Source of the DNA: an uncultured Methanosarcinales archaeon
Lineage (GTDB): Archaea; Nanobdellota; Nanobdellia; Woesearchaeales; JACJVW01
Assembly (NCBI GenBank): GCA_964473285.1
Contig: CAYYOI010000004.1
Span: forward strand, 1-59,968
Reading direction: 5' to 3'
DNA: 59,968 nucleotides
Translations under genes and position numbers: made by a program
Shown: positions 168 to 38,655 of the stretch, one piece after another
How the letters are laid out: every line of letters begins with the position of its first letter
How positions within the stretch are numbered: the stretch's first letter is position 1
The notes under the pieces: generated by a model
The model's database searches: none
What the model was told of the DNA's origin: nothing
Seen by the model: only the letters and a program-made list of their open reading frames with translations

Positions 168-228
168 AGGATAGCATCATATCTAAAAGTGCCTCAGAGC
201 AATCGGAGATACTGGAGAAATAGATATC

Positions 229-237
229 TTTTTAAAG
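229..237 (+). promoter_or_regulatory. putative archaeal TATA box of the giant-protein operon
   Basis: TTTTTAAAG with purine-rich sequence upstream; the same motif precedes the S13 operon; purine-rich SD-like GGGGAGAGGGTG lies just before TTG282. Confidence 0.5.
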
Positions 238-281
238 TAGTCTATCAAAACTTACTAAGAGTAAAGGGGAGAGGGTGTAAT

Positions 282-3200: not shown

Positions 3201-6200
3201 TCATCATTTTCTTATGTTTCTGTTCCTTGTCAGGATATAACCTCTAGTGAAAAACTTCAGTTTTATTGCGAAGGATGTGATTCCAATAACTTTTATAGGA
3301 TTCTTTATGATAATTCATCCTCCTCATTCAATTCATATTATTGGGATGGATTTGGCGATTATGAAAAATCATCGCAAGATTATCTTGTCAGTGTTTATAC
3401 AAATAGTTCTTTTGATTATAGTGTCTCTAGAAAACAAATTGAGTGTTCTGATGTCGGAGGAACTATTACTTTTAATTGTGAAGGATGTAGTTCAAATAAT
3501 TCTTATCACATGATGAGCGATGGTTCGAATCCAGGTTTCAGAATCTTTTCAAATACTTCTCTTGTTTATGGATGGGGGCACTCTGAATTACCCTGTGAAG
3601 AACTTTCAGCTGATTCAAACATTGGATTTTCAGCTAATAACCAATTCCGTATCCTTAAATCAGATGATATAGTGATCAATAAGATGGAATGGCTTACTGA
3701 TGATTATACACCTGTTGATCTTGATGTTCCATGCGATATCATAAACAGTGCTGATGAACTTTCCATTTCCTGTCCAGAGTGTACTTCTACCGATTCTTTC
3801 TATCTTTATCGGACAGATGAGCAATCAGGTCATACTGGAGATGCTTATCCTTATACAGATTTGAGTTTTTTTGTTGAAAGCAATACTTCTCTTGATTATT
3901 CCAAAGTTCAAATCCCAGTCAATTGTTCACTTGAAGACCCTGTGTTCTCCTGTCCTGAATGTACAAGTGATGATCATTATAATATCCTTTTAGGAGGTGC
4001 ATCCGGTAACACCTCTTTCTCTTTAGACAATGGTTCAACATGGAGCAATACTGCTTTTGATGCAGGAATTGGAGTGTATGTCTATGGTGCAAGCGATTCT
4101 GATGATATTGTTGTTGCTGATGCTAATGATAATGTTTCACTCCTTAACACAAGCCTGCACACACAATGGACCCTCTCATTCAATTCTCGTGTAAATGATA
4201 TTGCTATTGGTGAAGTTGATGTGGAATCAATAGGTAACGAAGTTCTTGTTGCAACCCAGAATGGCTTATATCTTTTTGATTCGAAGGGAAAGAACATTTG
4301 GAATTATTCAAAAGGTGCAAATACTGTTTTTATACAAGCCCTTGATGCGAGACAAGAAGCATATGCTGGACTTATAAATAATTCCTTGTACAAATGTGAT
4401 GCATCAGGTTGTCATAGTATTGCAACTTTTTCAGATGAGATTACTTCAATTTTAACTGGTGATTTTCATTCAGAACAAGGCTCTGAAATTGCTATCTCTT
4501 TTGATTCCGGACTCTTCAGTGTTTATGATTCATCCATGACAGCTTTAGAAACTCTAGATTTTAAGTCTGTAGTTTCTTTTACTGGGGGAAGGTTAATTGG
4601 TGTAGATCGTTCACAGTTGTTGGTGTCACACCTTAAAGGAATTAGTGCTTATGATTTTTCTCAACCAGAGAATGTTTCTTTACTTATAAATGATAGTGTT
4701 GTTTGGTCCCATATGGGTCTGCTAAGAAATGAAACCATTGATAATTTTGCTTATGCAATAAATATTAGTAACTGTTCTCCTTGTTATGTTCCTTTTGATA
4801 TTGAAACAGATTCTTCTGTCCCACTTCAACTATCTGATATTGATGTGAGGTTTGATTATAATTATAGCCTAGACTATACAGATGATTATACAAAATGGCT
4901 GAAAACATCTGATTTTATTGCAGGTTCACAAATACCTAACAAAGCAATCAAGATTGATTATACTTCTCCTTCGTTTCCTTTGTATGTCCAATATATAAGC
5001 CGTGAAGATCCTAATGAGGACAATTTTGTGTATGATTCCTCATCATTCTGGTTCAGAGACTCATACTGCCAGGGTATTGATACATTAGCTTATCTTGGAT
5101 ATACTTTACTCAATGGTTCATCTTTTCATTGTGATGAAGATTATTTTATCAGTGAAGAAGGTTCTGATTTTTTATGGGTTACTGGTGAGAAAGCTGTTCC
5201 AGTGGAAGTTTTAGTCAGAAATGGTTCAAATGATGCTATGAATTATTATAATATTACTTTAGAAAGAGGTATTGGTCATACTTCAGACTCTTTTCATAAT
5301 GTCAGTTATTCAAGTGATATTAATGAATCCTTCGTTGGAAATTTTGTAGATGTTATTGTAGATACAGATTCAGATGGATCATATGATCTTTTGTATCAAA
5401 ATTTATCTGGGTGCGAAGGTACAAGCTATAGAGTTTGTATTGAAGACCTCAATTCAAATGGTGTACCTGATCAAGTGATAACTACTACTTCTTTGATCAG
5501 TCCAGAAAATCCTTCGGTAAAATATAGGGTGATAGGGTATACAAATGAAATTCCAGAAATAACCTCTGTTGATATTAAACCATCTGGTGATAGATATTAT
5601 TTTGATACTGTATTATTCAATATTACTATAGCTGATTTTGAAAATGACATAAGGCAATTGACATTATATTTGAATACTTCTGGTACTGGCTGGTTTAATG
5701 CTGGCACAGAAACTACATTGACTGATCATGTCATTATTCCTGTGTTACTTAATTCTTCTATGGATGGTGAGTTGTCCTATCGTATTGAATATGCAGATTA
5801 TTCAGAGGAAGCGATTCACCTTGTGAGAAATACCACTACAAATAAAGTTTTCAATGTCAGTAAACCTTCTTTGATACTTGATATTCTTACTGATGATTAT
5901 GAAAGGATAAACCAAAATAATGTGTATGAAGATCATATAATTGCTAATGTTACAAAGGAAGGAACATCTTTTGATAATTATTCAAAAACAGATCTCCTTT
6001 GTGAGCTTTACATAAATACCTCTGAGGGTTACAGGAAACACTCTGATATAACAACAATTAAAAAGGGTCTTTGTTCATTTAATCTTAATAGTGATTCTCC
6101 TTATTCAACCGGCAACCACGATTATTATGTAAGGGTTAGGGCAGATGACCGTTTCTATCCTGCAACCTCTGAGGTGAAGAATGTTTTTATCTATTCTGGA

Positions 6201-9200
6201 TTAAATGCTAACATCTCAATCACACCTGAAACACTATATCGTAATAACGATCATGGAAATAATACCTTGTTGTTATGGAATGTTTCTGATATTAAGGATA
6301 GTACAGGCGATTTAATGACCGGCGCTGCAAATTATAGTGTTTTTTTTGGAGAAACTCTTATCTCCAATGGAACCTGTGATTCAAATGGATTTAGTGGCTC
6401 TTATGATGTTCCTTCATTTGAAGAGTTAGGCACGCATACCATCACAATACTTATCAATAATACTTTATTTGAATTATTTACACATTCAACCCAGGTAACA
6501 GTAAACGATGAACTTTTTGTTGAATTAGTGGATCCTTCTTCTATTGAGCCTGTTTATAAGGACCATGGAGAGGGATTGAATAATATTGATGATTCAACAA
6601 TTGAACTTTTTGTGGTGCTTGAGGATAGCCTAAATATTCCAGTAACTGATGCGACATACAACTTTAATACACCTAATAACTTTGTTGATTGTCTTGAATC
6701 CGGAAAAAAGACAAAAGAAGTAGATTTTGATGATGAACTTGAGCAGCCAATCGTAAAAGAAGGGTTCTATTGTATTTTCCATCCAGAAGACAGTTTGTCT
6801 CTTGGCTTGCAGAATTGGAATTTTACTGCATCACTTAAGAACCATTATCCTGTCAAATACACCGGTTCTTTCAATATCAAGGATACATTTGCCCCTGAGA
6901 TAATGACAAGTCCATCTTCTCCCGGACCTGTGTATATAAGAGGAACATCCAGTTCAAAGCTTTATATTAATTTTGAGGCTCAAGATAATGGGCAGAATGA
7001 GATTTTAAATTATTCATATTCTATAGATTGGGGAGAGACTGCCCTTATTTCAGGTTTTAATCAAAATTCTACTTTAACATATAGTTTCAATATTCCAGAT
7101 GATGAAGTTTTGGGTGAAAAAAGCCTTTTCATTTCATTGAATAAGGAAAATTATAAAGATTATTCAGAACAACTGAATTATCTTGTTCATGGTAGGCTCT
7201 ATGCCTTTACCCTAAATCCTGATAATGGAGTAAATGTAACTGTGGGAGATTCAGGAGGTCTTATCCTGACAATACAGGTAAAAGATGATTTTGATGAACA
7301 TGTACAAGCAAATGTTTCTTTTGTGCATCCTCCAGGATATTGCAGAAATGGAGTTGAATATTTTGGGAATGGAACTTACCAGTGTGAATACATGCCTGAT
7401 CCAAATGTAGCTCCAGGAGATTATACATGGAATGCTATTGCTGAAAAACCTTATCATAAGGAATCTAAAACTGAAGAGCGTAGTTTTACTATAATACAAA
7501 ATGTTCATCTTGAGTTTCTGCAGGATGAGTCTTATTTTAACCGAACAAATCATGTCGATTTGTCTGCGCAGTTGAATGATAAGTTTGGAAATCCTCTTGA
7601 ACTCTCAGGTTATTCATGTGTATGGAGTATTGATGACACTCCACTTGCGACAACTACTACTGATGAAGATGGAATTTGTAATTTTAGTATCCTTGCAGGT
7701 TGTGATTACCTTCCTGGACCACATTCTGTAAGGATTGGACTTAGCAAGCAAGACTCACCTTATACTTTAAAAGAGGAAACTAAAGGGAATATATACCTAA
7801 GAGATAAGGCAGAGGCGTCTATCATAACTCCTACTTCACTTGATGGAATAGCTGTAGGAGATAGCATCTACATGGAATCGTCTATCAGTGATAGCTGCAG
7901 TAATCCTCCTTCCTCAGAAATACCTTATGAAATAGATTGGTATTATTCCCAAATGGGTTCAGATGAAACAATTAAAGTCCTTTCTACTGATGAGGGATTT
8001 TGGACTGTACCTCCTGATGTATCAGGTGAGGGTATAATTTACATAATTGTCGATTATGATTATTTTAACACGAGTTATGGTACTCAGGAAATAGATGTGG
8101 AAGTGAATGATACAACTGGAATTCTTTTCTTGAATGAGGTTGTTGTAAGAAATTCAACATCTCAGAATTTCACCTTGAATGCTCAATTATCGCGTGAAGG
8201 AGACATCCCTATTAATGAGACCTCTATAATAGGTAACTGGAGCGGTTATACTTGTGAATGGTTCATCAATGATCAGTTTCAAGGCACTTCGATTACAAAT
8301 AAAGATGGTCTCTGTTCTATAAACTGGAGTACGACTTGTGAAGATCATTCATCTCTTTATTATCCTTTAGCGATAAATATCTCAAAAGATTCCCCTGACA
8401 TACCAATGTCAACCAATTATCTACAATCAGAGGTTGGAATATATGATAATGCTTCCTTGGAGATTGTTTCTCCTCAAAATCAATCTTCACATGTATATGG
8501 TGAGGAAGTTAATCTAGCAGTTAATGTATATGATAGTTGTGGTATTTCCTCTGCAGATTACAATCTGAATTGGTATTATCAGAAAAAAGACACTAAAACT
8601 ACAGTTGCTTCAGGGAAAAATACGACATGGAATGTTCCATCTCTTGCTCTTGACTGGTCGAATCTAACAGCATCACTTGATTATGCCCTTTATGATTCAA
8701 GCAATTCTACATTAACGCTCCATTTCAAAAGATATCTTAGCCTTTCTGAGCTTATTGTTCAAGAAGGGTTGCGCCAGGGGGATATGTCTCAGGTTCTTTG
8801 TAATATTTCAACCGAGGGGGTTTCAGATAGGTCAAATGTGGAAATACTTTTCATTCTTGATGAGTCTCAGAATTCAACAATAAGAAAAAGGCTATTATCA
8901 TTTGATGACGTAGAACCAGGGGTTGCACAAGGATTACTGGGTGGTAATGGTTCTGTCCGTGAAACTTGGTCTTGGTATAGGGATGTTAAACCATTTCAGG
9001 TTTATGCTAATGATTCTATATGTTTTGATCTTGATACTTCTGGCCTTGAATATACCTCTAGAGGGGATATCTATTTTTGCAAGTCTGAAAGCCTGAATTG
9101 TACTAATTATACTACTGTTGTTTTTAATCAAAGCGCAACAATAAATTCTACTGAACATGGAAACTGGGATTATTGCTTCAATATCACATCACCTTTCTAT

Positions 9201-12200
9201 TTTAGTGGAGGCACTCTTGGGACCTACATGAAAACAAGATCAATGACTACACATAATTCTACAAAAATAACAACTTCACGTTTAGATTCTTCTGATCAGA
9301 TTCTAAGAGGTGAAACTTACTCTTTTTTCAATGGCACTTATGATAATGCATCAAAAGAACTTTTGCAACGCTTTATAGGACAAAGATCCTCATTTAATCC
9401 CAGATCTATCAGAATTGTTGAAGGATCTGAAGAAGTACCTTTTATGTCTGAAGGATTCACTAAATATAGGTCTGATTTTAGTGAGTGGGATCAGGGCATT
9501 AATTGTAAGGCCTCATATTCCTCCGCATTAACATTGACACAGGAAGGTACACATCCGGATTATTGTAGGTATGAATCTAACCTTCTTTCTATACCTATTA
9601 AAGAGGATCTGACAGTGGCCTTCCAGGTTAAAAATGTTAGTATTGGTAGTTGGAAACTTGCTTTCAGGGATGAAGATTCAAAATTACATACTATTGGGGA
9701 ATCAGCATCTGATGGATTATTTACCTTTTCTCTTGAAGATTATGTAGGTATGAATATAACACGTTTTGCACTTTATACACAAGGGTATGATTCAACTGCC
9801 ACTTTTGATCTTTTGGAGGTGGTTGGTGAATCGGGTACTCTTACTTGGACATTAAATGGTACTACTGCTGGGGGCTCTGACCGTAATTATACAATATACT
9901 TTAAAACTCATGAAGATCTTGATACTGATTTATTTTCATTGGGGATCTTACCGGTATATCAGACAGAGATGTATGAGAGAGCCCGTTTTATGAATGGAAA
10001 TACAAATACACTTGTATACACTACAGGGAATGATAAACCAGGGTCTCTGGCAAATATGCTTGATAATCTTGTTACTGATGAAGTCATAACTTCTTGGACT
10101 CGTACAACTGATCAAGGTGATGTACAGAATATACATAAGAATAGTTCTTCATATGGGATTCTTCTTTATGAAAGCAGTTCTGGGTTTACAGATTCAGAAT
10201 CTAATGCTTATACAAGTCCTGAACCCGAAACACTTGCAGCTATAGCAAATTTCCTTGATCAGGGAGGAAAGCTAATATACATTGACAATCGTCTTGATTA
10301 TGATTCAACAGGGCTTTCTGATTTATTCACTTATACCAGTAATACCTGGAACCCATCAACGCATTACTGTAGCCCATATGAGGGGTCTTATCAGGCTTGT
10401 GGACAACCAACAAACGAAACACCTGACACCTTTTATCCTGCTGATAATAATAGTGTGGGGTTTTTGATATTTAATGATCAGATGGTTCACTCATTTACAG
10501 GGGGCGATGGTGAATCATGGATTACTGATGAAAGTGGAACACATTCTCTTATGGTTTCAGAAGGATATTCAACTTTAACCACTGCGCCAGGTGATAGTTC
10601 AAACAGCGGTTTCTCTAAGCACCTCAGTTTTACAGGTAAGCTTGCTGCGCCATATGATCGATATATTCCAACTACCCGGCTTTATGGCCTTGTTCCTTTG
10701 GGTTACACAGATAAGCCTTATTTACAGGTAATCTCTATGTATGCTGATACTGTTGTTGAGGTCTTAAACTCTTCAAATAAAATAATAGATACAAAAACAC
10801 TTGATGAATTTGAACTCTGGCGTACAGGCGCACTTGAGTCTTATCTAGGAGATACATTCATTGTAAATGCTTCTTCACCTGTTCTTGTATATCTGAGCGA
10901 TAAGCCTTATCTTACTGATCCTGTTCCCAGTATTCTGGGTGCCAACAAGCGATTCATGTATTATGATAATGGAAATTTCTTATATCGTGCATTAAACGGT
11001 ACTACAACAGGTTATATCTATGATTCTGTGGGAGAGGTTGATAGCTTCACTATCTCAGAGGGTGAAACCTACAAACCATTCTTATTTCCGGGAGTGTATG
11101 AGGTCCAGACTGATGCGCCTATTGTTATAGAACCTTCCTTATATAGTGGAGTTTCTCGTGTGGTGGATTCATCAGGGTCTGGTATAGGCAAGGAATTTTC
11201 AGTTTCAGCAGAAGCCCTTACTCTAGTAGGTCATGGGAATACCTCTGTTCATTTGAGTAGTGAACCTTCTAAAAAATCAGAGAATTATGATCATATAGGG
11301 TATGAGTTTTATACGTATCTTAGTGGTTCACCTAATATTTTCTCAACTTCACACGATACAACCGTGACAATATCTAATCTTGATTCTGCCGGTTTAGTCA
11401 TAGAAGAAGATGAGCTTCACCTACCACTTAAGGCCAAACTTAAGACTTATTCTCCAAAGACAAGACTTCTTTTGCATTTTGAGGGTTCACCTGGAAAAGC
11501 ATATTCTTTCTATGATAGTTCAGAAACTCAGGTTGCAAATGAATGTAATGTTACTTTAACTTCTGATTCACGATTTGGCACTGCTGCTGATTTTAATAAG
11601 GGTTTGATTGAGGTTGATGCCCTTGATTTCGGGTCAAATTATACTCTTGATTTCTGGATTAAGCATGGGTCTGAAAACCAGACATTTGTATCACAGTATG
11701 AGAATCAGAATCAGGCATTCAATATTAGCTGGTCTTCTGGTCTGCAGGCAGAGTTGATTGCCGGTGAGAATGTGATATTACTTAAGGATGAAAACCCAGA
11801 GTATACTGATTCATGGTATCATGTTGCATTAGTGCATGAAAATTCAACATATAAGCTTTATCTGAATGGTTCATTAATTGATAGTGTTGAAAGTCAGGCT
11901 TATCCTGAACCAGATGCACCTTTTATAATCAATCCAAGGGGTTTAGTTGATGAATTCCGATTTGTAGAAAGTGCTGACGAACCGCTGGGTGGGCTTTATG
12001 GTACTGTTTCTCCAGGATTCTATAGAATCAGTGCGGACAAGCCTATAGGTATTTATGATGGAAACTCACAGACTGAGAGTTATTCTGTATCATATGGTAA
12101 TGATCTTTGGGTACATGTACCATCATGGCCTGGTCATCCTGGTTCACTTTTCATTAATGCAATTGAGGATTCAACTGATGTAACTGTTACTGATCTTACA

Positions 12201-15200
12201 AACAATAAACAGTCAAAGAGATTTTCATTAGATTACGCGGAATCATGGGATTATCATGAAAAGATAGATACAAAAAAGGGCAAGCTTTTTCATATTGCTT
12301 CAGACAATCCAGTGATCGTTCAATCAGGAGTTATAGGCGAAAATATTTATGCACAGCTTCCAAACTTTGCAGGAGATCTAGTATTTACTAAACTTACACC
12401 TGGCAGCGCGTCTCGTACAATAATTGATAGCTCATTTGGCCATGGAATCCTTTATGATCGATTGGAATCTTCAGGAAATAGCTTGAAATCTGATTTAAAC
12501 AGTACTCAGGTCCATGCACATTCTGGAGATAGTTTCCGGTTGAATACTGAAAGAGTGCGGATATTCAGTGAAGCTCCACTAAATGCTTATAGCATCCTTG
12601 GATCAAGTGTTCCTTCACAGACACAATCAATTGCAAGCCTTGATAATCCTGGTGGCCTTGGTAAGGTGTATTCTGTTCGTGCAGGAGAGAATGCAAAGGT
12701 TGCAATTGTATCACTTGCTGATCTTAATAGAATAAGTGTAACTGGAGATCTCTCTACTGAGTTCACTTTAGGTAAAGAGAGTAACCGTCTATTAGATGTT
12801 CCCGGGGGTCTTGTAAGCATAAATGCAACAAAACCTGTAAGTGTTTTTGTTATAGGAGATTCAGGATACGCTCCTTTGTTTGTAACACCTGAGACAGTAA
12901 TGTCGGGACATTCCCAATCATATTCTATAAAGGATACTAATTTTACTGATGTTTCTTTCTTTAGTGGCTCAAGAAGCCCTGTAAAAGTGGTAGGGGATAT
13001 AGCTAATGATACAGTTTCAGTTTACAGGGCATTTTCACCTCATGTGGCATATGAGCTAGACGCAGATATAAATGCAACCGAAATTGGAGATATCAATGCG
13101 GATGGATTAGAAGACATACTTTTTGTTGATGCAGCGAATAATCTGAATTACCTTTTGCCCCATCATGATAGGCAACTGGATGTAAATGTAGAGGAGACTG
13201 CAGGTATTGAACGTATAAATGAACCCACAACAATATCATTTAATCCTGCATATGAAATAACTGATGACTGTCGTGATGTGAGAATATATACCTCTGATGG
13301 AGATGAAATAGGACGTGAGATAATAAAATGCCGGCAATTCAATGTTACACTTATAACACATGTATCATTGGACCCTTATGAAAATCTTTCTCTTCATATT
13401 ACATATGGAAATCCTTTCATTGCTGATGAACCTAAGCAACCAGTCTGTCCTGTGAAAACCAGCGGTTCAATAGAAGCAGGGATTGTGGATTTTGGTGATG
13501 CAGGACAAAGTACTGATAGGTTGGGTTTCAAGAAGACCCTTGAAGATAGTGGATGGATTCTCACAAATTACCAGGATAAGACTGGAACAGATATAAATGA
13601 GACTGCATCATCAAGAAAGGTTAATGCATATACTGAAGATCTTGATTCTTATGATTTCCTTGAATTTACGACTACAGGTGGATGGCCACCCTATGGAGCA
13701 TGGCATTTTGGCGGTAATGATCATTCATATTACGGTCCCCCTCCTGAAAAAATAGATTATTGTTCTGATGAAGGCGCCCCTCAGGTATGGACCATGCCCA
13801 GATATAAGGTGGCTCCAGGCCAAGAGATTACTCTTTGGGGGAGGATGGAATTCGAGGACGATACGCAAGCAACATATGAATGGGATTTTGGTGATGGGAC
13901 TACATCTGGAAAAACTTCATTTTCTCAGGAATCAGATACGCAAAGGGATCTTGCGCAAAAACATACTTATCATGGAGCAATTGGAAAGGTCTTTAATGCT
14001 ACGCTATGGGTCAGGCAAAATAATGGAAAATTCTGCTCACAGAATGTTTTTATCGAGATGGTCGATGATGACCATGACCTTGAAGTCTTCCAGGCATTGC
14101 AGGATGGGCTTAAAGTATTATATGAGAGACAATTGAGTGATGGTCGATGGGGTCATGACTTGACTACATCGACACATGATTATTATGATGGTTCCGGGAC
14201 AGCAATGTCACTTATTGCATTCAGTAATGTGGGGCATCTTACTTCTAATGATCCTTCATCTGATATTTATCATCAAACTGTTAAGGATGCTGCCGATTTT
14301 CTGGTTGATTACATGCAGGTTGTAAATGTTGGTAGTTATACACTTCCTGGATCCCATCATGATAATGGACAAGGCCTGAGTTATTACGCAAGAAGTGGAG
14401 GCAGATTTGGATATGTTGATGGCTTTGTAATGATGGGTCTTGCTTCCACAGCTGATGAATACTATAAGCCTTATGTGATTGATATGGTTGAGAATCATAT
14501 AAGAGTAGCATACTATGGAGGTCACAGGACCTGGAGATATTGTGATAATCGCGCAGGGTTTGATAATTCGGCACATCAGTTTCCAGCCCTTGGGATGGAG
14601 GCTGCTGAACAGATTATGGGTATAGATTTTGACTTGGAGACGGGTGGACCATATGATATATGGGGGCCAAATAGAGACAGAATTTATTCCACTTCATGTA
14701 GTTCAGGTTCAAGTAAGGGAAGATTTGGATATACTAGTGCAACTTGCAAAACAGGATATAGTCGAATGGGTTCTCATGTGGGCGGACTGACTAATCTTGC
14801 ATCAGCTCATGAGCCTGTATCAAGTGTGTATGTTCAGGATGCAATAGAGCATTCCTGCAATAATTGGCAATATCACAAGAATAATTACTACAATTTATTT
14901 GGAATTACTAAAGGGCTTAGATTATTTGAAGTGACAGATTTGAACTGTGCATCTCATGAGAATTTTGATTGGTCACGTGATCTTGAGGAGACTGTTTTGA
15001 CGCATCATTCACAAACAAATAACTTTGAATCATGGGATAAAGATTTTCACCGGAATAGAGCTTCAGGTCTTGCATCTGCGTTGATTATTTTGTCTGGAAC
15101 AGTTGTAGGAGCAATACCAATGGCTGATGCTGGTGAAGAGATGGAAGTGATTACAGGTGTAGACGTGTTGATGGATGGTTCTGAGTCATATCATCTGAAT

Positions 15201-18200
15201 CCGAATCAGAAAATCCAGACATATCACTGGGATTGTGAAGGAGATGGCAATTTTGAATATGTAGGTGAATCTCCTTATTATAATTGTTCATGGAATTCTC
15301 CAGGGACATACAATGCAAAACTTCAGGTAAGTGATGATAGTACTCCTACTTTAACAAATACAGATAGTGTAAAAATAGAAGTGAAAGATACTAGTCAAAA
15401 TGTTCCTCCAGTTGCAGATGGAGGAGAGGTCTATACCAATTGTTATGCATTGACGAATACTACATTTGATGCATCAGGTTCATTTGATTACAACGGAGAT
15501 AACCTGACATACCATTGGGATTTTGATGGTGACGGGGATTATGATGATTCTTCCAACATCTCTTCTCCTACAAATGAATTTGCATTCAATTCTCCTGGTG
15601 AGTATTATATCGCTTTGAAAGTAAGGGAAGCAGATACAGATATGCATCTCACTGATACTCATAAGCGTATCAAGGTTGTTTGCGATAGAGAAGATACAAG
15701 TTACTATTATTGGAATAAGGGCTACAATACAATGGATAGATTCAGATCTTATCTTGAGAATGGCGGAGTGATGTGGATTGATAATAGTGGAAGTTCAGGA
15801 GATGGTTATGGGGGTTTCTTTGACCTTTATGCTGGAGATTTCACAGATGGAAATGGTTATGTGCGTTGGAATACAAGCGAAGGCGATACTACTGAAGGAT
15901 TGATGCAGTCTTCCTACTCTTCATCAAGGCTATTGAATTATCCAACCTCTTTAGATGAAGAAGATTTGAATACTGAAATCATGTTATGGACAAATGGTTC
16001 AGCAGGGGGTAGTGGTATTGATATAAGTGAAGGCTTTGTTCCTATCCTTACACGTAATGGATATGATATGTTGGTTGCAAAACGTTATGGATGTGGTTAT
16101 GTTCTTGCTAGTGGAGGTGATTTTAGCTCAGATCTATATGCACCTGATGATATCTCTGATCCGGCTCCATATAAACTAATAACGAATATGATCTCTTTGT
16201 CTACTGGCCAACACAGCGCTTATCCTCCTTTGTCTGTTGATATAGAGGAGGGAGATTCAAGCTTTGCTTTTTCATATCAAGGTGGGGACACAGGTATAGA
16301 TACCTCATCAAACTATGGATTGTCTGTTGGAAATACTGATTCAGATCAGCAGGCTGAGATCTTGTATGCTGCAGAAGATGGAACCTCAAGAATCTTTGAT
16401 TTTATGGAAAAATCCGATGAACAAACAAGTACACCTTATAGTATAGTAGGTTCAACTATATTTAGCTATGAGAACAGTACTCTATTTGGATTAATTAAAG
16501 AGGACAATACTACTTTGCTTTATGATGATTCATTGGAGGACTCCCCTAGGAATCTTGAACATATCTCTTTATTTGATATCGCTTCAGTATCACTTGACCA
16601 TGACCATTTAATATTTATCAATTCTTCCCAAGAACTTGTTCTTTTTGATCCTGTCACAAATACTGTTAAAAATCTAGGTTTCAAGGTTGGCAGATCTGTA
16701 ACAGCAGGAGATTTTGATGATGACCTTTATGAAGAGATTGCCTTTATCACTGCCAATAAAACCCTTGGCTTTTATGATATTATTGATGATGTTCTTTTGG
16801 TTACCAATATATCTCTTCTTGACAAGAGACAGAGTCTTGGTGCAGGAGATCTCGATGGTGATGGAATTGATGAAATCACATACCTTGTTAATGGTACCTT
16901 GAAGATATATGATTCCTCTTCAACATACCATGATTATCTTATTGTAAAGGGTGAGGGAAGAGTTTCTTTGTCGGTTCCTGTTAATCCTGTATTTGAGCAG
17001 AATTCAAGTATAAATTCAAAAATTATTAGCTATAATGGTACAGGAGTTTACAGGTTGCCATCCGGGTGGGATACTTTTACATTTAACAGCACTGAATCTT
17101 TTATTTCAGGAGCGAATAAACCCTACATACTTGATGATTTTGATTATCCAGACAGTATATATTCCAATGGATGGTCCCAATGTGGCACAAATTTTGATTG
17201 TTCAACCCCTGTAAACTCATCATTTAAGACTACCTTCAAGACTTCTTTTTCAGGGATAGGCTCACTAAAATTCAATACTGAAAATGGACAAGGTGGTATT
17301 GAGCGCGAAGTAGATAAACCTTTATCATCCCATAGCAAATTAAATTTTGCATGGATGGTTCCATCTTTTGATCAAGGAAGCAGTGACCCTAATATAATCC
17401 TTAAAGTCCTTTTTGATGGAGGAGCTTCACTTAATTACTATATTAAGACGAGTTCTTATGGGTCTATGGTATGTGGTTTTTCAGGCTATATCTGCATTAC
17501 AGGTGACAATCTCAAAGATGCAGGGTTTGATAATTGGTATACAGTAAAACGTGATCTATTAGAAGATTATGAGGCCGAAGGTTTGTCAGGATCCCCAACC
17601 TCTATTAAAGCAATCGGATTATTTGTTCAAAATAGTGATAATGTTCCTTTCGAATTTTATCTTGATTCCTTGCGTCTTAATCACGCCAATCCAGAAATTG
17701 AATTATCTGATTCTGTGCAGGTAAGCAATCATCATGGTAATGTGCCTGAACTCACTTATTCAATAGGTGAAGAAGAAACTCTTCAATTGTCATGTTCTCC
17801 TGATGATTTGGGATATGATTATTTATTCTGCGAACTTGATGACAGAATTAAAATCAAGGCTACAAATGATACATTAGTCTTTAGTGGTACTGGTGATGAT
17901 ATATATGCCACTCCATTAATCTCAGAAGGCAGAAACGGAACTCTTACTACTCTCTCACAGAATCAGATTAATTATATCACTACACCTCAAGATTCTGCTA
18001 CAGTCACTATAGGGGGTTCTGATAAAGTCATAAATGAAAATGAGTTTATGCAAGTAGGCTATGATGGAACCACTCATGTTACATCTAGTTCTCCTTTTAT
18101 TGCATTATCTTCAGCTGTGAAGGAAAGGCAATCTCTCAATATTAATAGCACTTTCAACTATTCATACAACCTTAATTCAAGTTGTTTCTTTGATAGCCAG

Positions 18201-21200
18201 TGCACTAGTGGGTTCTGTAATAAGGGATTTTGTACCACTCATAATTCATCATTACATCTTGGCGTACTTTTGGACGAATGGTTTATTAATAATGGGAATG
18301 AATACAGCTGTGTAGGCTCATATGATTCAGATGGGAATCTTTCCTGTCATAATGGCTGTGGTGCTCCTGGAAAAAATTGTACTTTCATGCTTGATATTCC
18401 AACAATTCCAATCAGTTCACATGCTAACCATCTGTTGTTCCTTAATATGAACAGTTCAGGACAAGGAGGAAAAGTATCAATATATCTTAACGATTATCTT
18501 ATTGCTGAAAATCTTACACCTCCAGTTAATGACTATGGCAGTCTGCATGTAAAAGTACCACACAGATTCATAGAATCAGGTTCATTCAATGATCTTGTTA
18601 TAGAAAGTACGGGGACTTCAGGTGTAAGTCTAGATTCCTTTATTTTCATTGCTGAGGATACCGTTCTTGTGTCTGGCCAGGTTGAATTGGCAGTTGTTGC
18701 CGATCTTTTTTCTTCCTATGATAATCTTGAAGTCAATATCTCCTCTCCTTTTGAAACTTTACCTACGCAGCTTGCATTTAAAATGAATGGGAATACTGTG
18801 CTTGATTCTGATCGTAATGTAGAGAATGCAGGGCAAGTCTATGTTGAAACCTTTATATCTGAAGCTGCTTCTGAGTCTTTTGTAATCTCTGCAGATAGTG
18901 GACTTGGCAGTGATGAGATCACTCTTATTCCAGTAAATCAGTATTCATATTCACCCCATTATGGATATTATCTTCCTGGTTTGTTTGATCCTGCTACTGT
19001 TTCAGAATATGATTCAAATAAGATGATAAGGCTCCTTTATAACGTATTCTCAGAAACCGACGTTGCTGGCGGCCTTGATTATGGACTAGGTAATCTTGAA
19101 CGTGTACATCGCCATTCAGACTGGTGGAACAAAACTTATCTTTACAGGATTCCTTTGACTCTTCATGCTGGCGAATTTGATCGTAAATCTTTGGCAGTTT
19201 CAATAGATCTTAATGTAACTCCTTTACTAGATAATGTTACAGGTGCATCTCAACCTGCATTCAGAATCAATGGTTTAAGAACTGATTCTATATTAGAAGA
19301 AACAGACTCAAGTGGTGTGGCTTCTTTTATTTGGGACACTACTTTGGAGGAAGGAGGACCTCATTTGATTGACTGTATAATCAATAATGCTTCAGAACGT
19401 TATATCATAAGAGAACCTGATTCATTATCAGATATTTCTGTTGTAGCTGATAAGATTAATATAAGCTCTGATTATTTAGATAGTCGTGAGATTGATCCTT
19501 TCAATTCTTCTAAGAGGCTTGTGCCTTCAGAAGTAGTATATCGTTCAACACATCCTATTGATAAGTATCCTGATAAGCTATATCTTGCAGCCAATGCTAC
19601 TACAAAATGGCAGACTTCGTCAAGACAAGGCGAGATATATCCTATCGATGGTGCAACAATTCATTTTTATATTATAAAAGACCTTACAATAAGGGATCAT
19701 CTTACATGTACAGTTAATCTGACAGAGTATGAAGCCAATCAAAAAGATGGTGAAAACCACTGGTATGATCCTTACCATTGTCATGTTGTGTATGATCCAC
19801 TCAATGATTCTGCCGTAGGTTCTTATAAAGTAATAGTCAATGCTACAAAACCTAACTGGAGTTCGGAGTCAAGAGAGAAGAATTTTTCTATTCGCGGTTA
19901 TCTTGTAACAAATATCAGTGAACCTGAGAGTGATATCTTCCTAGGTTCAACACTAAATCTTGATGCAGATGTTTTGACTGACATAAATACATCTCCTGAT
20001 GATTTAAATGTCAAATGGTATTTTCGTGAAACAAATGAGACTTGTTCATCCTGGACAGATACCAATATCACTGGCCAATCTGCTGGTTTTTCAATTGGCT
20101 GTGACCTATCAGCAACCAAAACTTATAATCTTATGGCTCGTGCATTTGCAAAGGGTTATGAAAGTCCTAGGACATTTGGGAATTATGAAAATTGCGAAGA
20201 GCAACGAAGCAATGCAGACATTCTTGAGTTCCGTGTAAATACTTATGTCAGACCCAATATAACAAGTGGTGTGCATGGCGATCCAGACGACTATATAACA
20301 CTTGATTCTGATGTTGTTGTTACTGATTCAGGAGAATTGAGTATTGATTGTCAGGTCCTAAAATCCTGTGATTCTATTGAAACACCAATAAATGTGCCTT
20401 CCTATGCCGCAAATCTTTCATGTGAAGGATGTACAAATCCCAATGTTACATGGCCTCTGAGTACATCTCCTGATTCTGAGGGGACCTATACCTTTACATT
20501 CGATTTTTCAGGGGAAGAGCTTGATAAGGATTATAATTTCACCTGTTCAATCAAAAATTATTCATATTACTATACAAATCCTGCAACTGTCACAAAGACA
20601 TTGAGACCTGTATCACATATTGGTGATCCTGATTATTGTAATTATGATGGTTATTGTAATGATGGAGAAACATGCCTTAATTGTCCTGAAGATTGTGGTT
20701 ACGATAATCTTTTTAAGGGAGGTGTTTATAGCGATATGGATCTGGTGGAGGGTGAAAATTATACTTTGCATCAGGAGACTGGATGTGGATGTTATTCGGA
20801 GGATTTCTTTTGTGATAGTGTTTATGAAGTAACTTCATCTGCTTGTAGTGATTGCCAGAATTCAGTAACACCTAAAGCCCCTACTATTGTAAGGCAAAGA
20901 ACTGATGATTGTTGGGGTCTTTGTGATGGTACTAGATGTGATGGTTCTTGTGATGGTGTTTCTTCAGATAATGTGATGGGTAGTGGGGAATCTTTCTTTA
21001 TATATGCAAATATTGCAGACCCCAATGAGCAAGATAAATTTGACGCGTGGATTGAAGATACTGATGGAACAAAACTTGCTGATATGGAACAGGTTAGTGG
21101 GACAAAATATGAGTCTGTCATACCATTTAGTACCGATTCCTTTGTAACTGATAAAACCTATCTGATTATTGCCGAAGATGATAGTCAGGATAAATTAAGA

Positions 21201-24200
21201 TCAAATAAAACTGTTACAGTCTATAAAGATGATGGAATGCCCTCAATCGATTCTTTTACAGTGGAGCCTACAGCACTTGCAGAGGGGAATACTATTACTA
21301 TCGGAGTCACAGTCTCAGATTTAGGAGAAGGTGTTTCTCATGTCATCCTGCAAAATGGAACTTCAGATAAGACTTACCTTGAAAGGCAAAGTGAGACTTA
21401 CTTCCAAGGCGAATTGATAGCTAAAGATACTACAGGTTCAGGAAATATGGATATAAATATCTCTGTGTATGACCGTTCAGCTAATGGGCCAGTTGTAGAT
21501 TCAACTACTGTTACTGTTGATACAAATCCACCTCATATCTATGATTTGTATGCTTCTGAAACTTATTTTGAACCCCCAACTAGCACATTTGATATTACTT
21601 TTAGTGCTACTATAGAAGATAGTAATATAGAAGATGCATGGGTGTATAGCCCTGATGAAAACCAAAAAATTTGTGACTTAAACCTTAATGGTGAAAGTCA
21701 TGAATGTACCGTTACATTTGAGGGAGGTTATCCAAAGTTTGGTTCATCTGATGGTACAGCAAAGGCGACCTATCAATTCCTTGCAAATGATACTTATGGA
21801 CAGATGTCGGGAAGTGAAGGGATCTGTAATGATGATTGTAAATTCATATTTTATGATTCAACACCTCCTGAAATAAATTCAATTCTTTTGGATGATAAGA
21901 GTTGGCCTTCAAATCATATGTATGTTCAGTCAGGAACTGATGTATCAATAAAGGCAGAAATAACTGACAAACCTGTCAATGACAGCTCTTATTTTATCTC
22001 ATCACGTGAATTGCTAGATTCAAACTTACAGTCAGTAGGTTCCCTTGAACATTATAATGAGGATGTATGGAATATAACACGAACTATAAATGCTGATTCG
22101 ATATATCATTTGTATGCAGAAGATGAAGCAGGACATTCAGAACAAGTAATGCTTAACTTCACTATAGATGATATTTCACCTGATATAACTATTCTGAGTC
22201 CTGTATCTGATGATGTTGTCAAAGGGACAATTTCATTAGTTATAAACATAACTGAACCTCATCTTGAGACAGATGCCATTGAATACCGTGTGCTTACTGA
22301 TGGTAGTGAGAGTATACCCTGGAGTAAACCTATTCATGATACAGGTGGAATCTATGAAGATTCGATTGCTACTTCAGTGGATCTCAATGATAGTGAAGAT
22401 ACCGTTATTCAGGTTAGGGCTAATGATACTGCAAAAAATAAAGGTTCTACAAGCGTATCCTTTATTGTTGATAATACAAAACCTACTATCACAATAGACT
22501 CACCTCTTGAAAGCTCAACGATAGAAGGACTAGTGTGGCTTAATGCAACGGTTGAGGATGAGACAAGTGGCTTGGCAGAGGTAAGTTATAGAATCGATGA
22601 GGAAGGATTTAATTCATCTTGGGATACTATTGATCCCTATGCTTACCAATTCAATTCATCACATTATATTGATGGTAATGTAAGCATATGCATACGAGCC
22701 TTAGATAATGGTAATAACCAACGTGAGGTTTGTATAGATCCTGTTAATATAGATAATAACGCTCCTGTAATCAATATAACTTCTCCTGAAAACCTTACTC
22801 ATTTGTCTGGTGCAGTAAACTTGAGCGCACAAATCTATGATGAAGCTGGTAACCCTAATCCTGGTTCATATAGCTGTGGTTTTGCTTCTACAACTGAATC
22901 CTCCAATATTGTAGAAGATGAGAACTTTACCTGTAGCCTTTCGACAAAGGGATTGGATAATCATACATGGTATGATCTTTATGTTAATGCATCAGATAAA
23001 CTTGGTCATACTTCAATCAAATCCATCCAGATTTGGGCAGATAATCTACCACCTAATGTTTCACAAGTAACCTTGAGTGATTCAATCCTTTATGAAGGAC
23101 AAGAAATTGAAGTTGTTGTTAATGTAAGTGATGAGTCAGATTTCTCAATTAAGAATGTTACGGTAGATTCACAGATTATTACATGGAATGGTAGTATTTG
23201 GGTTGGTAATGTGACACCTTATATGGATTCTGAGCCCTTTGATAATCTTTCAATAGTTGTTTATGATCATGCAGGAAATAATGTTGATGTTACTTCTCCT
23301 TTTGAATGGGATATTGGTGATGTATCCATTTGGAACTTCACCAGCAATGCAATGTATGGATATTCTTCATCTGAACAAGAACTTGATTTTTCAGTATATG
23401 CTAAAGATGATGATGACAATCTCAAGAATGTAACAGTAGGTTCAATAGAAATGACAAATTCTGGAGGTAATCGATTCGTAGGGACTGGAACTCCTGAACA
23501 AGCCAATGGTTGTGATTCAGAAGGATTGTGCACTCTTTCAGCTGTTGTTTTTGATGAAGGAGAAAATTCTAACAATGTCTCTTTAAACCTTACAATTGAT
23601 AATACACCTCCTTTAATCCATAAATTTACCATTTCCACGCGTGATTCTTACATGAATTCATATGATAATTACTCATATCTTATCCAGGCAGGTGACAGTA
23701 TTGGATTACTAGAAGCAAAAATAAATGGAATTAGTATGAATGCAAGTTCCATGTCTACTTCTGTAAACTATACTTTGTCAGCGAATGCTACTTCTATTGG
23801 ATGCACTGCTCCTGTAGCACCATATTCTAACTGTACTATCCAGGGTTCAGTCTATGACTGGGTCCTTAATAATGACACAAAAACTATTAATGTTAAGGTT
23901 GATGATTTCAAGCCAATCTTTTCAGGTATATCTGTAAATGGTCAGTTAACCACTCCTTTAGTCTCCCGTGACGGAATGGTGTTTCTTGCGGTAAATCTTT
24001 CAGGAGAAGGCCCTAATACAATCCATCAAGTCATTGCCGAACCTACTGCTCATGAAGCAGGGAACCAGTCACTTAGTTGGAATGGAAGCCTATGGACAGG
24101 TGATATCAAGATTGATAATGATAATTATATCAATCTGAGCGCAACAGATAAGGCCTCGAATACTGCATACAACAATTCCTTTAGAATAGATGTAGATCTT

Positions 24201-37615: not shown

Positions 37616-38655
37616 TGGCACAACAAGATGATCGAGAAAAGGATGTTTTAACGAAGGAAGATTTCAACAAGCTTGAGGCTAGTGAGTCGAAGAAAAGCAT
37701 ATTCAAGAGAATCTTTGGAAAAAAAGAAGAAAAGAAAACAGAAAAGAAAAAGGAAAATGACTATGTTGCCCCCATATCTTTTAATGAGATGATTAATGAG
37801 TTCTATAACCTTAATGAGAGGTTTGATAACTTGCTTGTTCAGGTAGAGAAACAGGCCGGCCGAATTGAAATGGTGGAAGAATCAAAGAAAGCCTTTGATG
37901 AGAAACTTGTTGGTATCACTACTCAAATGGGGGAGTTAAGATCAAATCTTGTTTCACGTGAAAGATTTTTTGATAGAATGGAATCTGAATTTACCAGTAT
38001 GAAACAGATTGTTTCAAAGGCGAAGCCAGAAATACTGGATATACGGTTTAAACAGATAAATAATTATCTCCATAAGCTATATGATAGTCTCAATCATTTT
38101 CAGACTAAGATGAATGAAAGAGGTGCTTATCTTAATGAATTGAATTCACAATTATCTGAGCTTCATAAGGTGCGTTCAGAAGTAACTTCTCTTCGTGAAG
38201 AAATGGAGAAAATCAGTGTTGTTAAAGAGACTAAAAAATATGTGGACCAAAAAGCAGGAGAGATTGAAAAACTTTACTCTAACATAGTTGATAAATTTTC
38301 AACAATGGAAAAATCCATTGATAGGGTTAAGTCACTTGAGGATTCCTTTAATAATATGAAAAAATCAGTTGATAGACTTAAGCTTCTTCCAAAGATTGTT
38401 GCCACTAAAAAAGAAATGGATACATTATATTCCTTTATTGAAACTCTGAAATCTGATGTTGATCTTGACCTTTCAAAAGTAAAAATTTCACCAGAGGTCT
38501 CAATTGATGCAGGAAAAGAAATGGATGCATTGATAGCCTGGGCCAAATCAGAAATCTCAGCAGGGAAAAACGAATCTGTTATTGTATCAATGGCAGTTTC
38601 GAAAGGATGGAAAGAAGACCTTGTCAGGCAAGCAATCAAACTTGTTCGTGAGTGA
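37615..38655 (+). CDS. cytoplasmic coiled-coil protein with a small C-terminal helical domain
   Basis: Long heptad-rich E/K region; N-terminal SIFKRIFGKK; C-terminal LIAWAKSEISAG..IVSMAVSKGWKEDLVRQA; TAATG overlap. Confidence 0.85.
   Translation: MAQQDDREKDVLTKEDFNKLEASESKKSIFKRIFGKKEEKKTEKKKENDYVAPISFNEMINEFYNLNERFDNLLVQVEKQAGRIEMVEESKKAFDEKLVGITTQMGELRSNLVSRERFFDRMESEFTSMKQIVSKAKPEILDIRFKQINNYLHKLYDSLNHFQTKMNERGAYLNELNSQLSELHKVRSEVTSLREEMEKISVVKETKKYVDQKAGEIEKLYSNIVDKFSTMEKSIDRVKSLEDSFNNMKKSVDRLKLLPKIVATKKEMDTLYSFIETLKSDVDLDLSKVKISPEVSIDAGKEMDALIAWAKSEISAGKNESVIVSMAVSKGWKEDLVRQAIKLVRE

What the first reader, a model, noticed from the sequence alone, without database searches (positions are those of the whole stretch)
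8790..19400. A ~3,470-aa branch inserted in one loop of a single Ig-like repeat
One backbone repeat type reads C-x-V/I...(Y/V)-x-F...T(D)xxG...G-x-Y/H-x-x-x-C-x-I. In uninterrupted copies the two Cys are 65-66 codons apart (20349/20544; 28521/28719). The copy starting SQVLCNIS..VEILFILD (Cys 8799) finds its second half only at EETDSSGVASFIWDT..GPHLIDCII (Cys 19374), 3,525 codons later. Most lectin-like and enzyme-like cargo (LamG, IgGFc-like, FG-GAP, PKD, toroid, CBM-like) lies inside this loop, implying a branched rather than linear molecule.
Basis: partly seen in the sequence, partly recalled or inferred. Interest (0 to 1): 0.8.

Follow-up and report, generated by a model that had tools for sequence, protein, structure and literature searches.

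The report
Giant cargo block inside one Ig repeat
In an 11,811-residue surface protein of a small-genome archaeon, a block of about 3,460 residues of lectin-like and enzyme-like domains sits inside a loop of one Ig-like repeat that is uninterrupted in related proteins, so the block probably hangs off the protein's stalk as a side branch.

Summary
The window carries one 11,811-aa ORF (189-35624, +). A profile of 11 uninterrupted orthologous repeats matches aa 2846-2900 with nodes 1-55 and aa 6358-6425 with nodes 43-110, so two complementary halves lie 3,457 residues apart. The protein is collinear end to end with two paralogs in its own genome, except for this block. In 401 genomes of the order, 14 loci cross the site unbroken. 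One other giant (G043:C41, 15,809 aa) is split at the same loop by an unrelated 615-aa insert. An independent metagenome contig bridges the left junction.

The interpretation (halves rejoin, so the molecule is branched) is plausible but not shown. In favour: the Cys pair that co-varies in homologs (9 with both, 2 with neither, 0 with one) is kept, one Cys per half. No homologous local complement exists. Local AF2 folds leave both halves unfinished. A two-chain prediction gave only weak support (0.37 against 0.01 for the best control).

The closest known things are the split Ig-like domains of bacterial RTX adhesins and the SPEARE-type giant proteins of DPANN archaea. This is a new variant of a known kind, and an extreme one in size.

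The parts
189..35624 (+). Giant ORF, 11,811 aa. It has an N-terminal hydrophobic signal/anchor (aa ~33-54), an ectodomain of about 11,370 aa made of Ig-like and other beta-rich modules, a TM helix (aa ~11426-11444) and a C-terminal HerA/VirB4-like P-loop ATPase.
8724..8888 (+). First half of the split Ig-like repeat (aa 2846-2900: strands A, B, C). Cys2871 is at nt 8799-8801.
   Evidence: Orthologous HMM nodes 1-55, 18.3 bits. Only positive hit of the A-B sub-profile. BLAST to paralogs C7 and C11 runs up to here. AF2 strands at aa 2850-2856, 2866-2875 and 2878-2889, pLDDT 64-72.
8889..19259 (+). Inserted block, 3,457 aa (aa 2901-6357). No paralog in the genome. GC 0.379 against 0.349/0.352 in the flanks, and 1.86 N-x-S/T sequons per 100 aa against 3.28/4.07.
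11622..11930 (+). Laminin_G_3 (ConA-like lectin) domain inside the block, aa 3812-3914.
   Evidence: Pfam PF13385, 39.8-46.5 bits against a cut-off of 27.6
13818..15629 (+). PKD - about 350-aa helical-looking module - PKD - PKD cassette inside the block (aa 4544-5147). It is shared with bacterial PKD/FG-GAP proteins.
   Evidence: 26% identity over 669 aa to P0025 (named by its source as a PKD domain-containing protein of Citrifermentans bremense), E 5e-39. Pfam PKD and PKD_4.
19260..19463 (+). Second half of the split repeat (aa 6358-6425: a second strand-C-like stretch, C'/TDxxG, E, F, G). Cys6396 is at nt 19374-19376.
   Evidence: Orthologous HMM nodes 43-110, 36.6 bits. Sub-profile 42.7 bits, full length. 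BLAST to C7 and C11 resumes here.
26511..27218 (+). A second, smaller split repeat. First half aa ~8775-8812, an extra ~155 aa (aa ~8813-8965), second half aa ~8966-9010. The same repeat is uninterrupted in paralogs C11 and C7b.
   Evidence: BLAST collinearity: giant 8791->8970 against C11 6615->6640, and giant 8773->8969 against C7b 1539->1578. MAFFT alignment. Second half = nodes 53-108 of a 2-sequence profile, 11 bits; that profile did not detect the first half.
34608..35621 (+). Cytoplasmic C-terminal ATPase domain (aa 11474-11811).
   Evidence: Pfam DUF87/HerA 57.6 bits, TrwB_AAD_bind, HerA_C. 67% identical to the C-termini of paralogs C11 and C7b.
35621..37615 (+). Next gene: a second HerA/AAA_10-like ATPase (664 aa), overlapping the giant's stop codon.
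   Evidence: Pfam DUF87 42.3 bits, HerA_C, AAA_10

Best explanation
The ORF encodes a membrane-anchored giant surface protein of a small-genome (DPANN-like) archaeon, with the layout described for SPEARE-type proteins.

SHOWN: one Big_1-like Ig repeat of its stalk is interrupted between strand C and strand C'. The interrupting block is lineage-specific, 3,457 residues long and multi-domain: LamG, three PKD, a cassette shared with bacterial PKD proteins, Cys-rich modules and much unassigned beta-rich sequence.

INFERRED: after export, the three N-terminal strands (aa 2846-2900) and the C-terminal strands (aa 6358-6425) pack into one beta-sandwich, probably stapled by a Cys2871-Cys6396 disulfide between strands B and F. 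The stalk would then continue through the repeat, and the whole block would project sideways as a cargo arm. Ig-like split domains project ligand-binding domains out of bacterial RTX adhesins in this way.

INFERRED: the C-C' hairpin of this repeat type is a permissive socket into which different cargo has been recombined. It carries 615 aa in another genus and about 155 aa in another repeat of this protein. The arm most likely serves binding to, or processing of, surface glycans or proteins of a host or partner cell.
For: (1) The halves are complementary by orthologous HMM: nodes 1-55 and 43-110. Each sub-profile has its best or only hit at the expected half.

(2) Collinearity. 21 of 30 400-aa tiles hit paralogs C11, C7 or C7b at E<=1e-6, and the 9 tiles without a hit are exactly 2801-6400. 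In C7 the two flanks map to 3628-3755 and 3764-3935.

(3) In 401 genomes of the order, 10 had a match. 14 loci cross query positions 141/146 unbroken. 2 are split there: the window and G043:C41. Some of the 14 may be generic rather than orthologous repeats.

(4) G043:C41 is a full-length collinear homolog. Its halves are cleanly complementary: nodes 3-52 at 38.7 bits and nodes 50-110 at 52.6 bits, 615 aa apart. It keeps both Cys, and its insert is unrelated to the window's (best E 0.42).

(5) Cys covariation. Of the 11 uninterrupted repeats, 9 have exactly two Cys at the B and F columns, 2 have none and 0 have one. The window keeps one in each half. There are 38 Cys (an even number) between them, none in aa 6065-6395, and the next two downstream form the conserved pair of the next domain.

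(6) There is no sign of decay. The summed HMM scores of the split copies (55 bits here, 91 in G043:C41) lie within the 25-116 bits of uninterrupted homologs not used for the profile. Second-half identity to homologs is 31.8%, against 31.3% among homologs.

(7) No homologous local complement was found. No profile hit falls in aa 2896-3050 or 6250-6360.

(8) With the same 7-row alignment, AF2 is confident on the neighbouring domain (pLDDT 63-92) but not on the second half alone (about 32-53). It does not recruit the upstream residues (pLDDT 22-34).

(9) Two-chain prediction of the halves: score 0.37 (runs 0.37, 0.50, 0.13) against 0.01 for the best control. The mark was reached by 58 of 80 solved complexes and 2 of 110 mismatched pairs. 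At 0.60 or under it was reached by only 7 of those 80 and by both mismatches that passed, so the verdict is 'weak support'. The runs share at least 41% of contacts, and the partner's pLDDT is at least 42. The pass may also come from likeness to solved Ig folds.

(10) Precedent: Ig-like split domains that project ligand-binding domains (PMC12077191 and PMC10865825, passages read).
Against: No structure or confident model shows the halves together, and the complex score is weak by the tool's own calibration.

Strand C is present on both sides (ILFILD and FRING; 13 overlapping nodes). The break is therefore less clean than in G043:C41, and one of the two strands has no assigned role.

The first half is less conserved: 24.1% identity to homologs, against 32.6% among homologs. 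Paralog C7 shows 22.9%.

Both local AF2 models had mean pLDDT 52-53, and the flanking insert sequence had no alignment rows. Local completion by non-homologous strands is therefore not excluded. By eye, aa 2940-2975 (DSICFDLDTSGLE...GDIYFC) and aa 6325-6345 (YRIPLTL...LAVSIDL) have strand-like patterns.

An insert 30-40 times the size of its host is far outside the usual range: inserted domains have a median of 115 aa against 199 aa for hosts (PMC13114784, passages). It would leave the first half unpaired until 3,457 further residues have emerged.

There is no expression or protein evidence. The insert's age is unknown, so conservation of the halves could simply mean the insertion is recent.
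Confidence: 0.6

Rival explanations
1. Linear molecule. The block was recombined in, and each half is completed locally by non-homologous or unrecognisably diverged strands: aa 2846-~2975 would be one domain and aa ~6320-6425 another. All domains would then lie in series and there would be no branch.
For: Strand C occurs on both sides. MAFFT can lay aa 6310-6357 over the first half of the homologs at 21-25% identity. BLAST to C7 and C11 starts at aa 6346/6338, slightly upstream of the strict second half. Cys2964 lies 93 residues after Cys2871 in a G-x-I-Y-F-C context. AF2 draws strands at aa 6325-6327 and 6336-6342.
Against: No profile hit for a local complement at either side, even at very permissive thresholds. 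The candidate strands have pLDDT 22-50. The second half has no Cys within 332 residues upstream. G043:C41 has clean halves with no duplicated strand. There is no protein or DNA similarity between the two borders that would mark a duplication.
Confidence: 0.2
2. Vestigial halves. The insertion broke the repeat, and the two pieces persist as unfolded or loosely associated linkers at the ends of the block.
For: The first half is less conserved than its neighbours: 20.9% identity against 31.7% for the preceding domain. AF2 is not confident on the second half.
Against: Both halves keep profile scores in the range of intact copies and keep the co-varying Cys pair. The same loop is used in G043:C41 and in a second repeat of this protein, which points to a tolerated site rather than random damage. 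The two-chain prediction raised both chains' pLDDT from 32-37 with unrelated partners to 60-68 in two of three runs.
Confidence: 0.15
3. Assembly artefact. The 10.4-kb block was joined into the gene by mis-assembly of a metagenome.
For: The window comes from a metagenome-assembled genome of 114 contigs. The right junction is bridged only by contigs of the probable source run.
Against: The frame stays open across both junctions for 35 kb. An independent assembler's 57,423-nt contig of X1 is identical over 8000-20000. A contig from another study (X3) bridges the left junction with 0 differences, and pieces of the insert occur in X2, X3 and X4. The block returns to exactly the complementary point of the same repeat.
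Confidence: 0.02

Closest known systems
Split Ig-like domains of Gram-negative RTX adhesins (AhLap, FrhA, MpIBP; PMC12077191 and PMC10865825, passages read; crystal structure 9CSE cited there)
   Same: An Ig-like beta-sandwich of a long fibrous surface protein is discontinuous in sequence. A ligand-binding module buds out of it and the chain returns to finish the fold, so the cargo projects off the fibre axis.
   Different: Those are bacterial, exported by type I secretion, with Ca2+-dependent extender domains. The first section is a single beta-strand. The cargo is one domain of roughly 17-30 kDa (nested cases are a little larger). Here the protein is archaeal with a signal/anchor and a C-terminal TM. 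The break comes after three strands, in the C-C' hairpin. The cargo is 3,457 aa of many domains, and reassembly is not yet shown.
SPEARE-type giant membrane-anchored proteins of Nanohaloarchaeota (PMC10266531, passages read)
   Same: Sec-type N-terminus, a huge ectodomain rich in Ig-like and fibronectin-like repeats, a TM, a C-terminal VirB4/TraG/HerA-like ATPase domain, and a second such ATPase encoded immediately downstream.
   Different: Those reported are 8,880-9,409 aa and come from halophiles. No split repeat or branch is described in the passages I read. I did not align the window's protein to them, so homology was not tested.
Domain insertion in general (PMC13114784, passages read); nested Ig-like domains of Gram-positive pilus adhesins and the integrin I-domain (recalled, no call)
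   Same: A1-B-A2 topology, with the insert placed where its two ends can lie close together.
   Different: [quoted passage not shown] Here the insert is about 35 times the size of its host.

Membership tests
Split Ig-like domain (as defined for RTX adhesins) | Host domain is an Ig-like beta-sandwich that is discontinuous in primary sequence | tested here: met
   Two complementary profile matches (nodes 1-55 and 43-110) lie 3,457 aa apart, and 11 of the 11 homologs used have the repeat unbroken. The repeat type reaches Pfam Big_1 in one other copy, aa 9045-9108, at 37.6 bits against a cut-off of 34.9.
Split Ig-like domain (as defined for RTX adhesins) | The two sections refold into one domain | tested here: inconclusive
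   Two-chain prediction: 0.37 against a best control of 0.01. The mark was reached by 58 of 80 solved complexes and 2 of 110 mismatches, but passes at 0.60 or under are weak (7 of those 80, and both mismatches). Contacts agree in at least 41%, and partner pLDDT is at least 42. The local folds are unconfident.
Split Ig-like domain (as defined for RTX adhesins) | The inserted module has its N and C termini close together and projects off the axis | not testable with these tools
   The 3,457-aa insert exceeds the fold limit and has no alignment.
Split Ig-like domain (as defined for RTX adhesins) | Part of an RTX adhesin (RTX beta-roll, type I secretion signal) | tested here: not met
   No RTX or T1SS family in the Pfam scans of the whole ORF. 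The organism is archaeal, shown by the S13-S4-Rpb3 gene cluster. So this works like such a domain but is not a member of that protein family.
SPEARE-like DPANN giant surface protein | N-terminal signal, giant Ig-rich ectodomain, TM, C-terminal VirB4/HerA-like ATPase | tested here: met
   Hydrophobic N-terminus and TM read from the sequence. DUF87/HerA, TrwB_AAD_bind and FtsK_SpoIIIE hits at aa 11472-11557.
SPEARE-like DPANN giant surface protein | Second secretion-type ATPase gene immediately downstream | tested here: met
   ORF 35621-37615: DUF87, HerA_C, AAA_10.
SPEARE-like DPANN giant surface protein | Sequence homology to the described SPEARE proteins | not tested
   No SPEARE sequence was fetched or aligned.

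The most novel reading that the evidence does not exclude
The C-C' hairpin of one conserved stalk repeat is a cargo socket in the giant surface proteins of these small-genome archaea. Whole arms are swapped in and out by recombination: none in most homologs, 615 aa of lectin-like domains in one genus, and 3,457 aa including a cassette of bacterial type here. The host Ig domain recloses around them, clamped by a B-F disulfide. That would make this the largest domain insertion known and the protein a truly branched polypeptide machine.
Probability: 0.4. Interest if true: 0.8.

Novelty: new variant of a known kind. Interest (0 to 1): 0.66.

Why it matters
If the halves do reclose, this shows that an approximately 100-residue Ig domain can host an insert about 35 times its own size. 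That is far beyond the surveyed range of domain insertions, and it raises a concrete folding question: how does half a domain wait for 3,457 residues?

It would also extend the split-domain way of displaying ligand-binding cargo from bacterial RTX adhesins to archaeal giant proteins. The comparison of three states at one site (empty, 615 aa, 3,457 aa) marks where host-interaction specificity is probably encoded and exchanged in these little-understood symbiont-type archaea.

Practically, split repeats could be used to find the functional cargo in megaproteins that Pfam leaves almost blank.

Tried and rejected
General self-profile of 8 Big_1-like copies: too weak to judge the halves.

Search for relatives of the start of the insert (aa 2896-3304, 'longer'): none at E<=1e-3 among proteins of 717-2045 aa.

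ESM Atlas on aa 2896-3230: best score 0.77, no lead.

Pfam on the last 418 aa of the insert, on the 154-aa small insert and on the G043 insert: nothing above cut-off.

DNA direct repeats or protein similarity between the two borders: none beyond chance. A target duplication or an excisable element is therefore not supported. An intein was rejected from the sequence alone: no intein-like junction residues, and the content is adhesin-type domains.

Contigs of X1-X4 showed no joint that skips the block. Contigs cannot show that such a form is absent.

Fold searches of both local models matched only the neighbouring complete domains: model 12-110 with Z up to 10.7, and model 182-335 with Z up to 10.5. 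Neither half was matched as a domain, which says nothing either way.

The two-chain prediction replaced it.

A third possible split repeat (aa ~9676-9705 plus ~10005-10040) was seen by eye only. It is shared with paralog C11 and was not confirmed by any profile.

Supplements of the cited papers were not seen.


Full report
**What is in the window**

A single ORF runs from 189 to 35624 on the + strand, 11,811 aa. It has a hydrophobic N-terminal segment, about 11,370 residues rich in N-x-S/T sequons, a TM helix at about aa 11426-11444 and a C-terminal HerA/DUF87-type P-loop ATPase. The next gene (35621-37615) is a second HerA/AAA_10-like ATPase. The minus-strand cluster S13-S4-Rpb3/RpoD at 57.6-59.8 kb marks the organism as an archaeon.

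The genome (G000) is 1.71 Mb in 114 contigs, 97% complete, and belongs to an order of 0.6-2.1 Mb genomes. From these sizes I infer that it is DPANN-like; no name was available. It holds eight open frames above 4,000 aa.

The layout matches what PMC10266531 describes for nanohaloarchaeal 'SPEARE' giants: signal, Ig-rich ectodomain, TM, VirB4/TraG-like ATPase, and a second ATPase gene next door (passages read). Homology to those proteins was not tested.

**Checking the observation**

The motif as written is weak. Its full regex matches only once. The two 'intact copies' do not find each other by phmmer. A general profile of eight Big_1-like copies barely touches the second half and misses the first. 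The repeat-family argument alone would therefore not have carried the claim.

Orthologs do carry it.
- blastp against the genome's other giant ORFs showed that paralog C7 aligns giant aa 2743-2873 to its 3628-3755 (E 2e-12) and giant aa 6346-6514 to its 3764-3935 (E 5e-15). The two flanks are adjacent in the paralog.
- Paralog C11 behaves the same way, with the two alignments overlapping at C11 3208-3261.
- In 400-aa tiles, 21 of 30 tiles hit C11, C7 or C7b at E<=1e-6. The nine tiles without a hit are exactly 2801-6400.
- tblastn of the block against the whole genome found only itself and one weak hit to a neighbouring gene at 44419-44898 (E 1.7e-4).

A full HMMER search of 1.84 billion representatives with the contiguous homolog from genome G026 gave only 21 hits. 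The eight that span the repeat and are close enough (P0002-P0008, P0010) all carry it unbroken.

From these eight plus G026, C7 and C11, I built a 110-node profile. It matches aa 2846-2900 as nodes 1-55 (18.3 bits) and aa 6358-6425 as nodes 43-110 (36.6 bits). Sub-profiles place the A-B part only at 2846-2883 and the TDxxG-to-end part best at 6371-6425 (42.7 bits, full length). Neither has a hit in aa 2896-3050 or 6250-6360. An added-fragment alignment shows the first half stopping just before the TDxxG turn and the second half resuming at strand C.

The block between the halves is 3,457 aa (nt 8889-19259).

**Is it an artefact?**

No. An independent Logan assembly of run X1 (probably the source sample) spans 8000-20000 without a difference. 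A contig of run X3, from a different study, covers 8727-9006 without a difference and so crosses the left junction. Pieces of the block occur in X2-X4. No contig skips the block. The right junction is bridged by X1 only.

**A second split at the same site, with other cargo**

I searched 401 genomes of the order with a 356-aa piece of the G026 homolog (preceding domain, repeat, next domain). Matches came up in 10 genomes. 14 loci cross query positions 141/146 unbroken, and two are split there: the window and G043:C41. Some of the 14 (G258, G275, G305, possibly G135) may be generic copies of the repeat type rather than orthologs, judging from their profile coverage. The P proteins and the G loci may also partly be the same proteins.

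G043:C41 is a 15,809-aa ORF, collinear with the window's protein from aa 239 to the C-terminal ATPase. Its halves are clean: nodes 3-52 (38.7 bits) and nodes 50-110 (52.6 bits), 615 aa apart. Both Cys are kept. Its insert shows no similarity to the window's (best E 0.42) and matches no Pfam family. The same genome also has an unbroken paralog, C97 (116 bits).

The site therefore exists in three states: empty, 615 aa and 3,457 aa.

Within the window's own protein, a second repeat (aa ~8775-9010) carries about 155 extra residues at the equivalent place relative to C11 and C7b. For that case only the second half is profile-confirmed.

**What the block is**

Pfam assigns LamG_3 (aa 3812-3914) and three PKD domains (about 4530-4620, 4976-5062 and 5071-5150). 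FG-GAP and DUF4350 are below cut-off, and the rest has no match.

The stretch aa 4544-5147 (PKD, a module of about 350 aa, PKD, PKD) is 26% identical over 669 aa to a module of bacterial PKD/FG-GAP proteins, for example P0025, which its source names as a Citrifermentans bremense protein (E 5e-39).

The block is slightly richer in G+C (0.379 against 0.349/0.352), richer in Gly, and has about half the sequon density of the flanks. This fits a foreign or at least separate origin, largely adapted to the host genome. That is inference.

**Does the repeat reclose, making a branch?**

Arguments for:
- The two Cys columns co-vary in the uninterrupted repeats: both present in 9, neither in 2, one in 0 of 11. 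The window keeps one in each half. The second half has no other Cys for 332 residues upstream, 38 Cys (an even number) lie between the two, and the next two downstream are the conserved pair of the next domain.
- The split copies are not decayed. Summed profile scores of 55 bits (window) and 91 bits (G043:C41) lie within the 25-116 bits of independent unbroken homologs. Second-half identity equals the family norm, at 31.8% against 31.3%.
- The same hairpin is used repeatedly. That is expected for a permissive insertion site and not for random breakage.
- Local AF2 models with alignments limited to the homologous parts did not complete either half locally. The first-half strands have pLDDT 64-72, followed by 26-50. 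The second half has about 32-53 with its upstream at 22-34, whereas the neighbouring domain with the same alignment reaches 63-92.
- The two halves as separate chains scored 0.37 (runs 0.37, 0.50, 0.13) against 0.01 for the best of three controls. The mark was reached by 58 of 80 solved complexes and 2 of 110 mismatched pairs. At 0.60 or under it was reached by only 7 of those 80 and by both mismatches that passed, so the tool calls it weak support. The runs share at least 41% of contacts, and the partner's pLDDT is at least 42. My own alignments were used, and likeness to solved Ig folds may contribute.

Arguments against:
- No confident model shows the halves together.
- Strand C is present twice.
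- The first half is less conserved, at 24% identity against 33% among homologs.
- Strand-like patterns next to both halves leave room for local completion.
- The insert-to-host size ratio is far outside surveyed insertions: a median of 115 aa inserted against 199 aa for the host (PMC13114784, passages).
- Nothing is known about expression.

**Verdict**

Insertion in the C-C' loop is shown; reclosure and branching are the best explanation (about 0.6) but remain inferred.

Mechanistically it works like the split Ig-like domains of RTX adhesins (PMC12077191, PMC10865825). It is not a member of that family, since no RTX or T1SS features are present and the organism is archaeal. I did not find it described for archaeal giants in my searches. 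These were limited to open-access full text, and I did not see supplements.

I rate it a new variant of a known kind, with interest about 0.66.

Noticed in passing
G000 genome: C4:132-35621, C11:91-29676, C7 (two frames), C8, C13, C1, C5: A 1.71-Mb genome carries eight open frames above 4,000 aa: 11,830, 9,862, 7,548, 6,051, 5,105, 4,455, 4,358 and 4,069 aa. Together they make about 160 kb, roughly 9% of the genome. Most are sequon-rich.
   Followed up: partly
G000:C7, reverse-strand frames 2666-25309 and 25128-38492 (reverse-complement coordinates): Two adjacent frames of 7,548 and 4,455 aa overlap by about 180 nt. Together they are collinear with the window's single 11,811-aa protein. This is either one gene broken by a frameshift or assembly error, or a natural split into two genes.
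   Followed up: no
window 13818-15629 (aa 4544-5147): A PKD-module-PKD-PKD cassette inside the block is shared with bacterial PKD/FG-GAP proteins: 26% identity over 669 aa to P0025, E 5e-39. This hints at cross-domain transfer of cargo.
   Followed up: partly
window 44290-45705 (-): A 471-aa gene with no Pfam hit is weakly similar to aa 4773-4941 of the block (tblastn E 1.7e-4). It is the only other match to the block in the genome.
   Followed up: no
window 26511-27218 (aa 8775-9010): A second Ig-like repeat is interrupted by about 155 residues at the equivalent C-C' position. The repeat is unbroken in paralogs C11 and C7b.
   Followed up: partly
G043:C41:15376-62802 (L020-L023); L019 aa ~18-170: A 15,809-aa ORF in another genus is collinear with the window's protein. 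The repeat before its split one also looks interrupted by about 85-95 aa, again with a strand-C-like stretch on both sides (by eye, with weak profile hits).
   Followed up: partly
window 38652-44246 (+) and 37615-38655 (+): Downstream of the two ATPase-bearing genes lie a 346-aa ORF and a 1,864-aa sequon-rich ORF (4.35 sequons per 100 aa) with no Pfam family above cut-off. They are possibly further parts of the same surface apparatus.
   Followed up: no
window aa 9676-9705 and 10005-10040 (nt ~29214-30308): By eye, another first-half/second-half pair about 300 aa apart, shared with paralog C11. No profile confirmed it.
   Followed up: no
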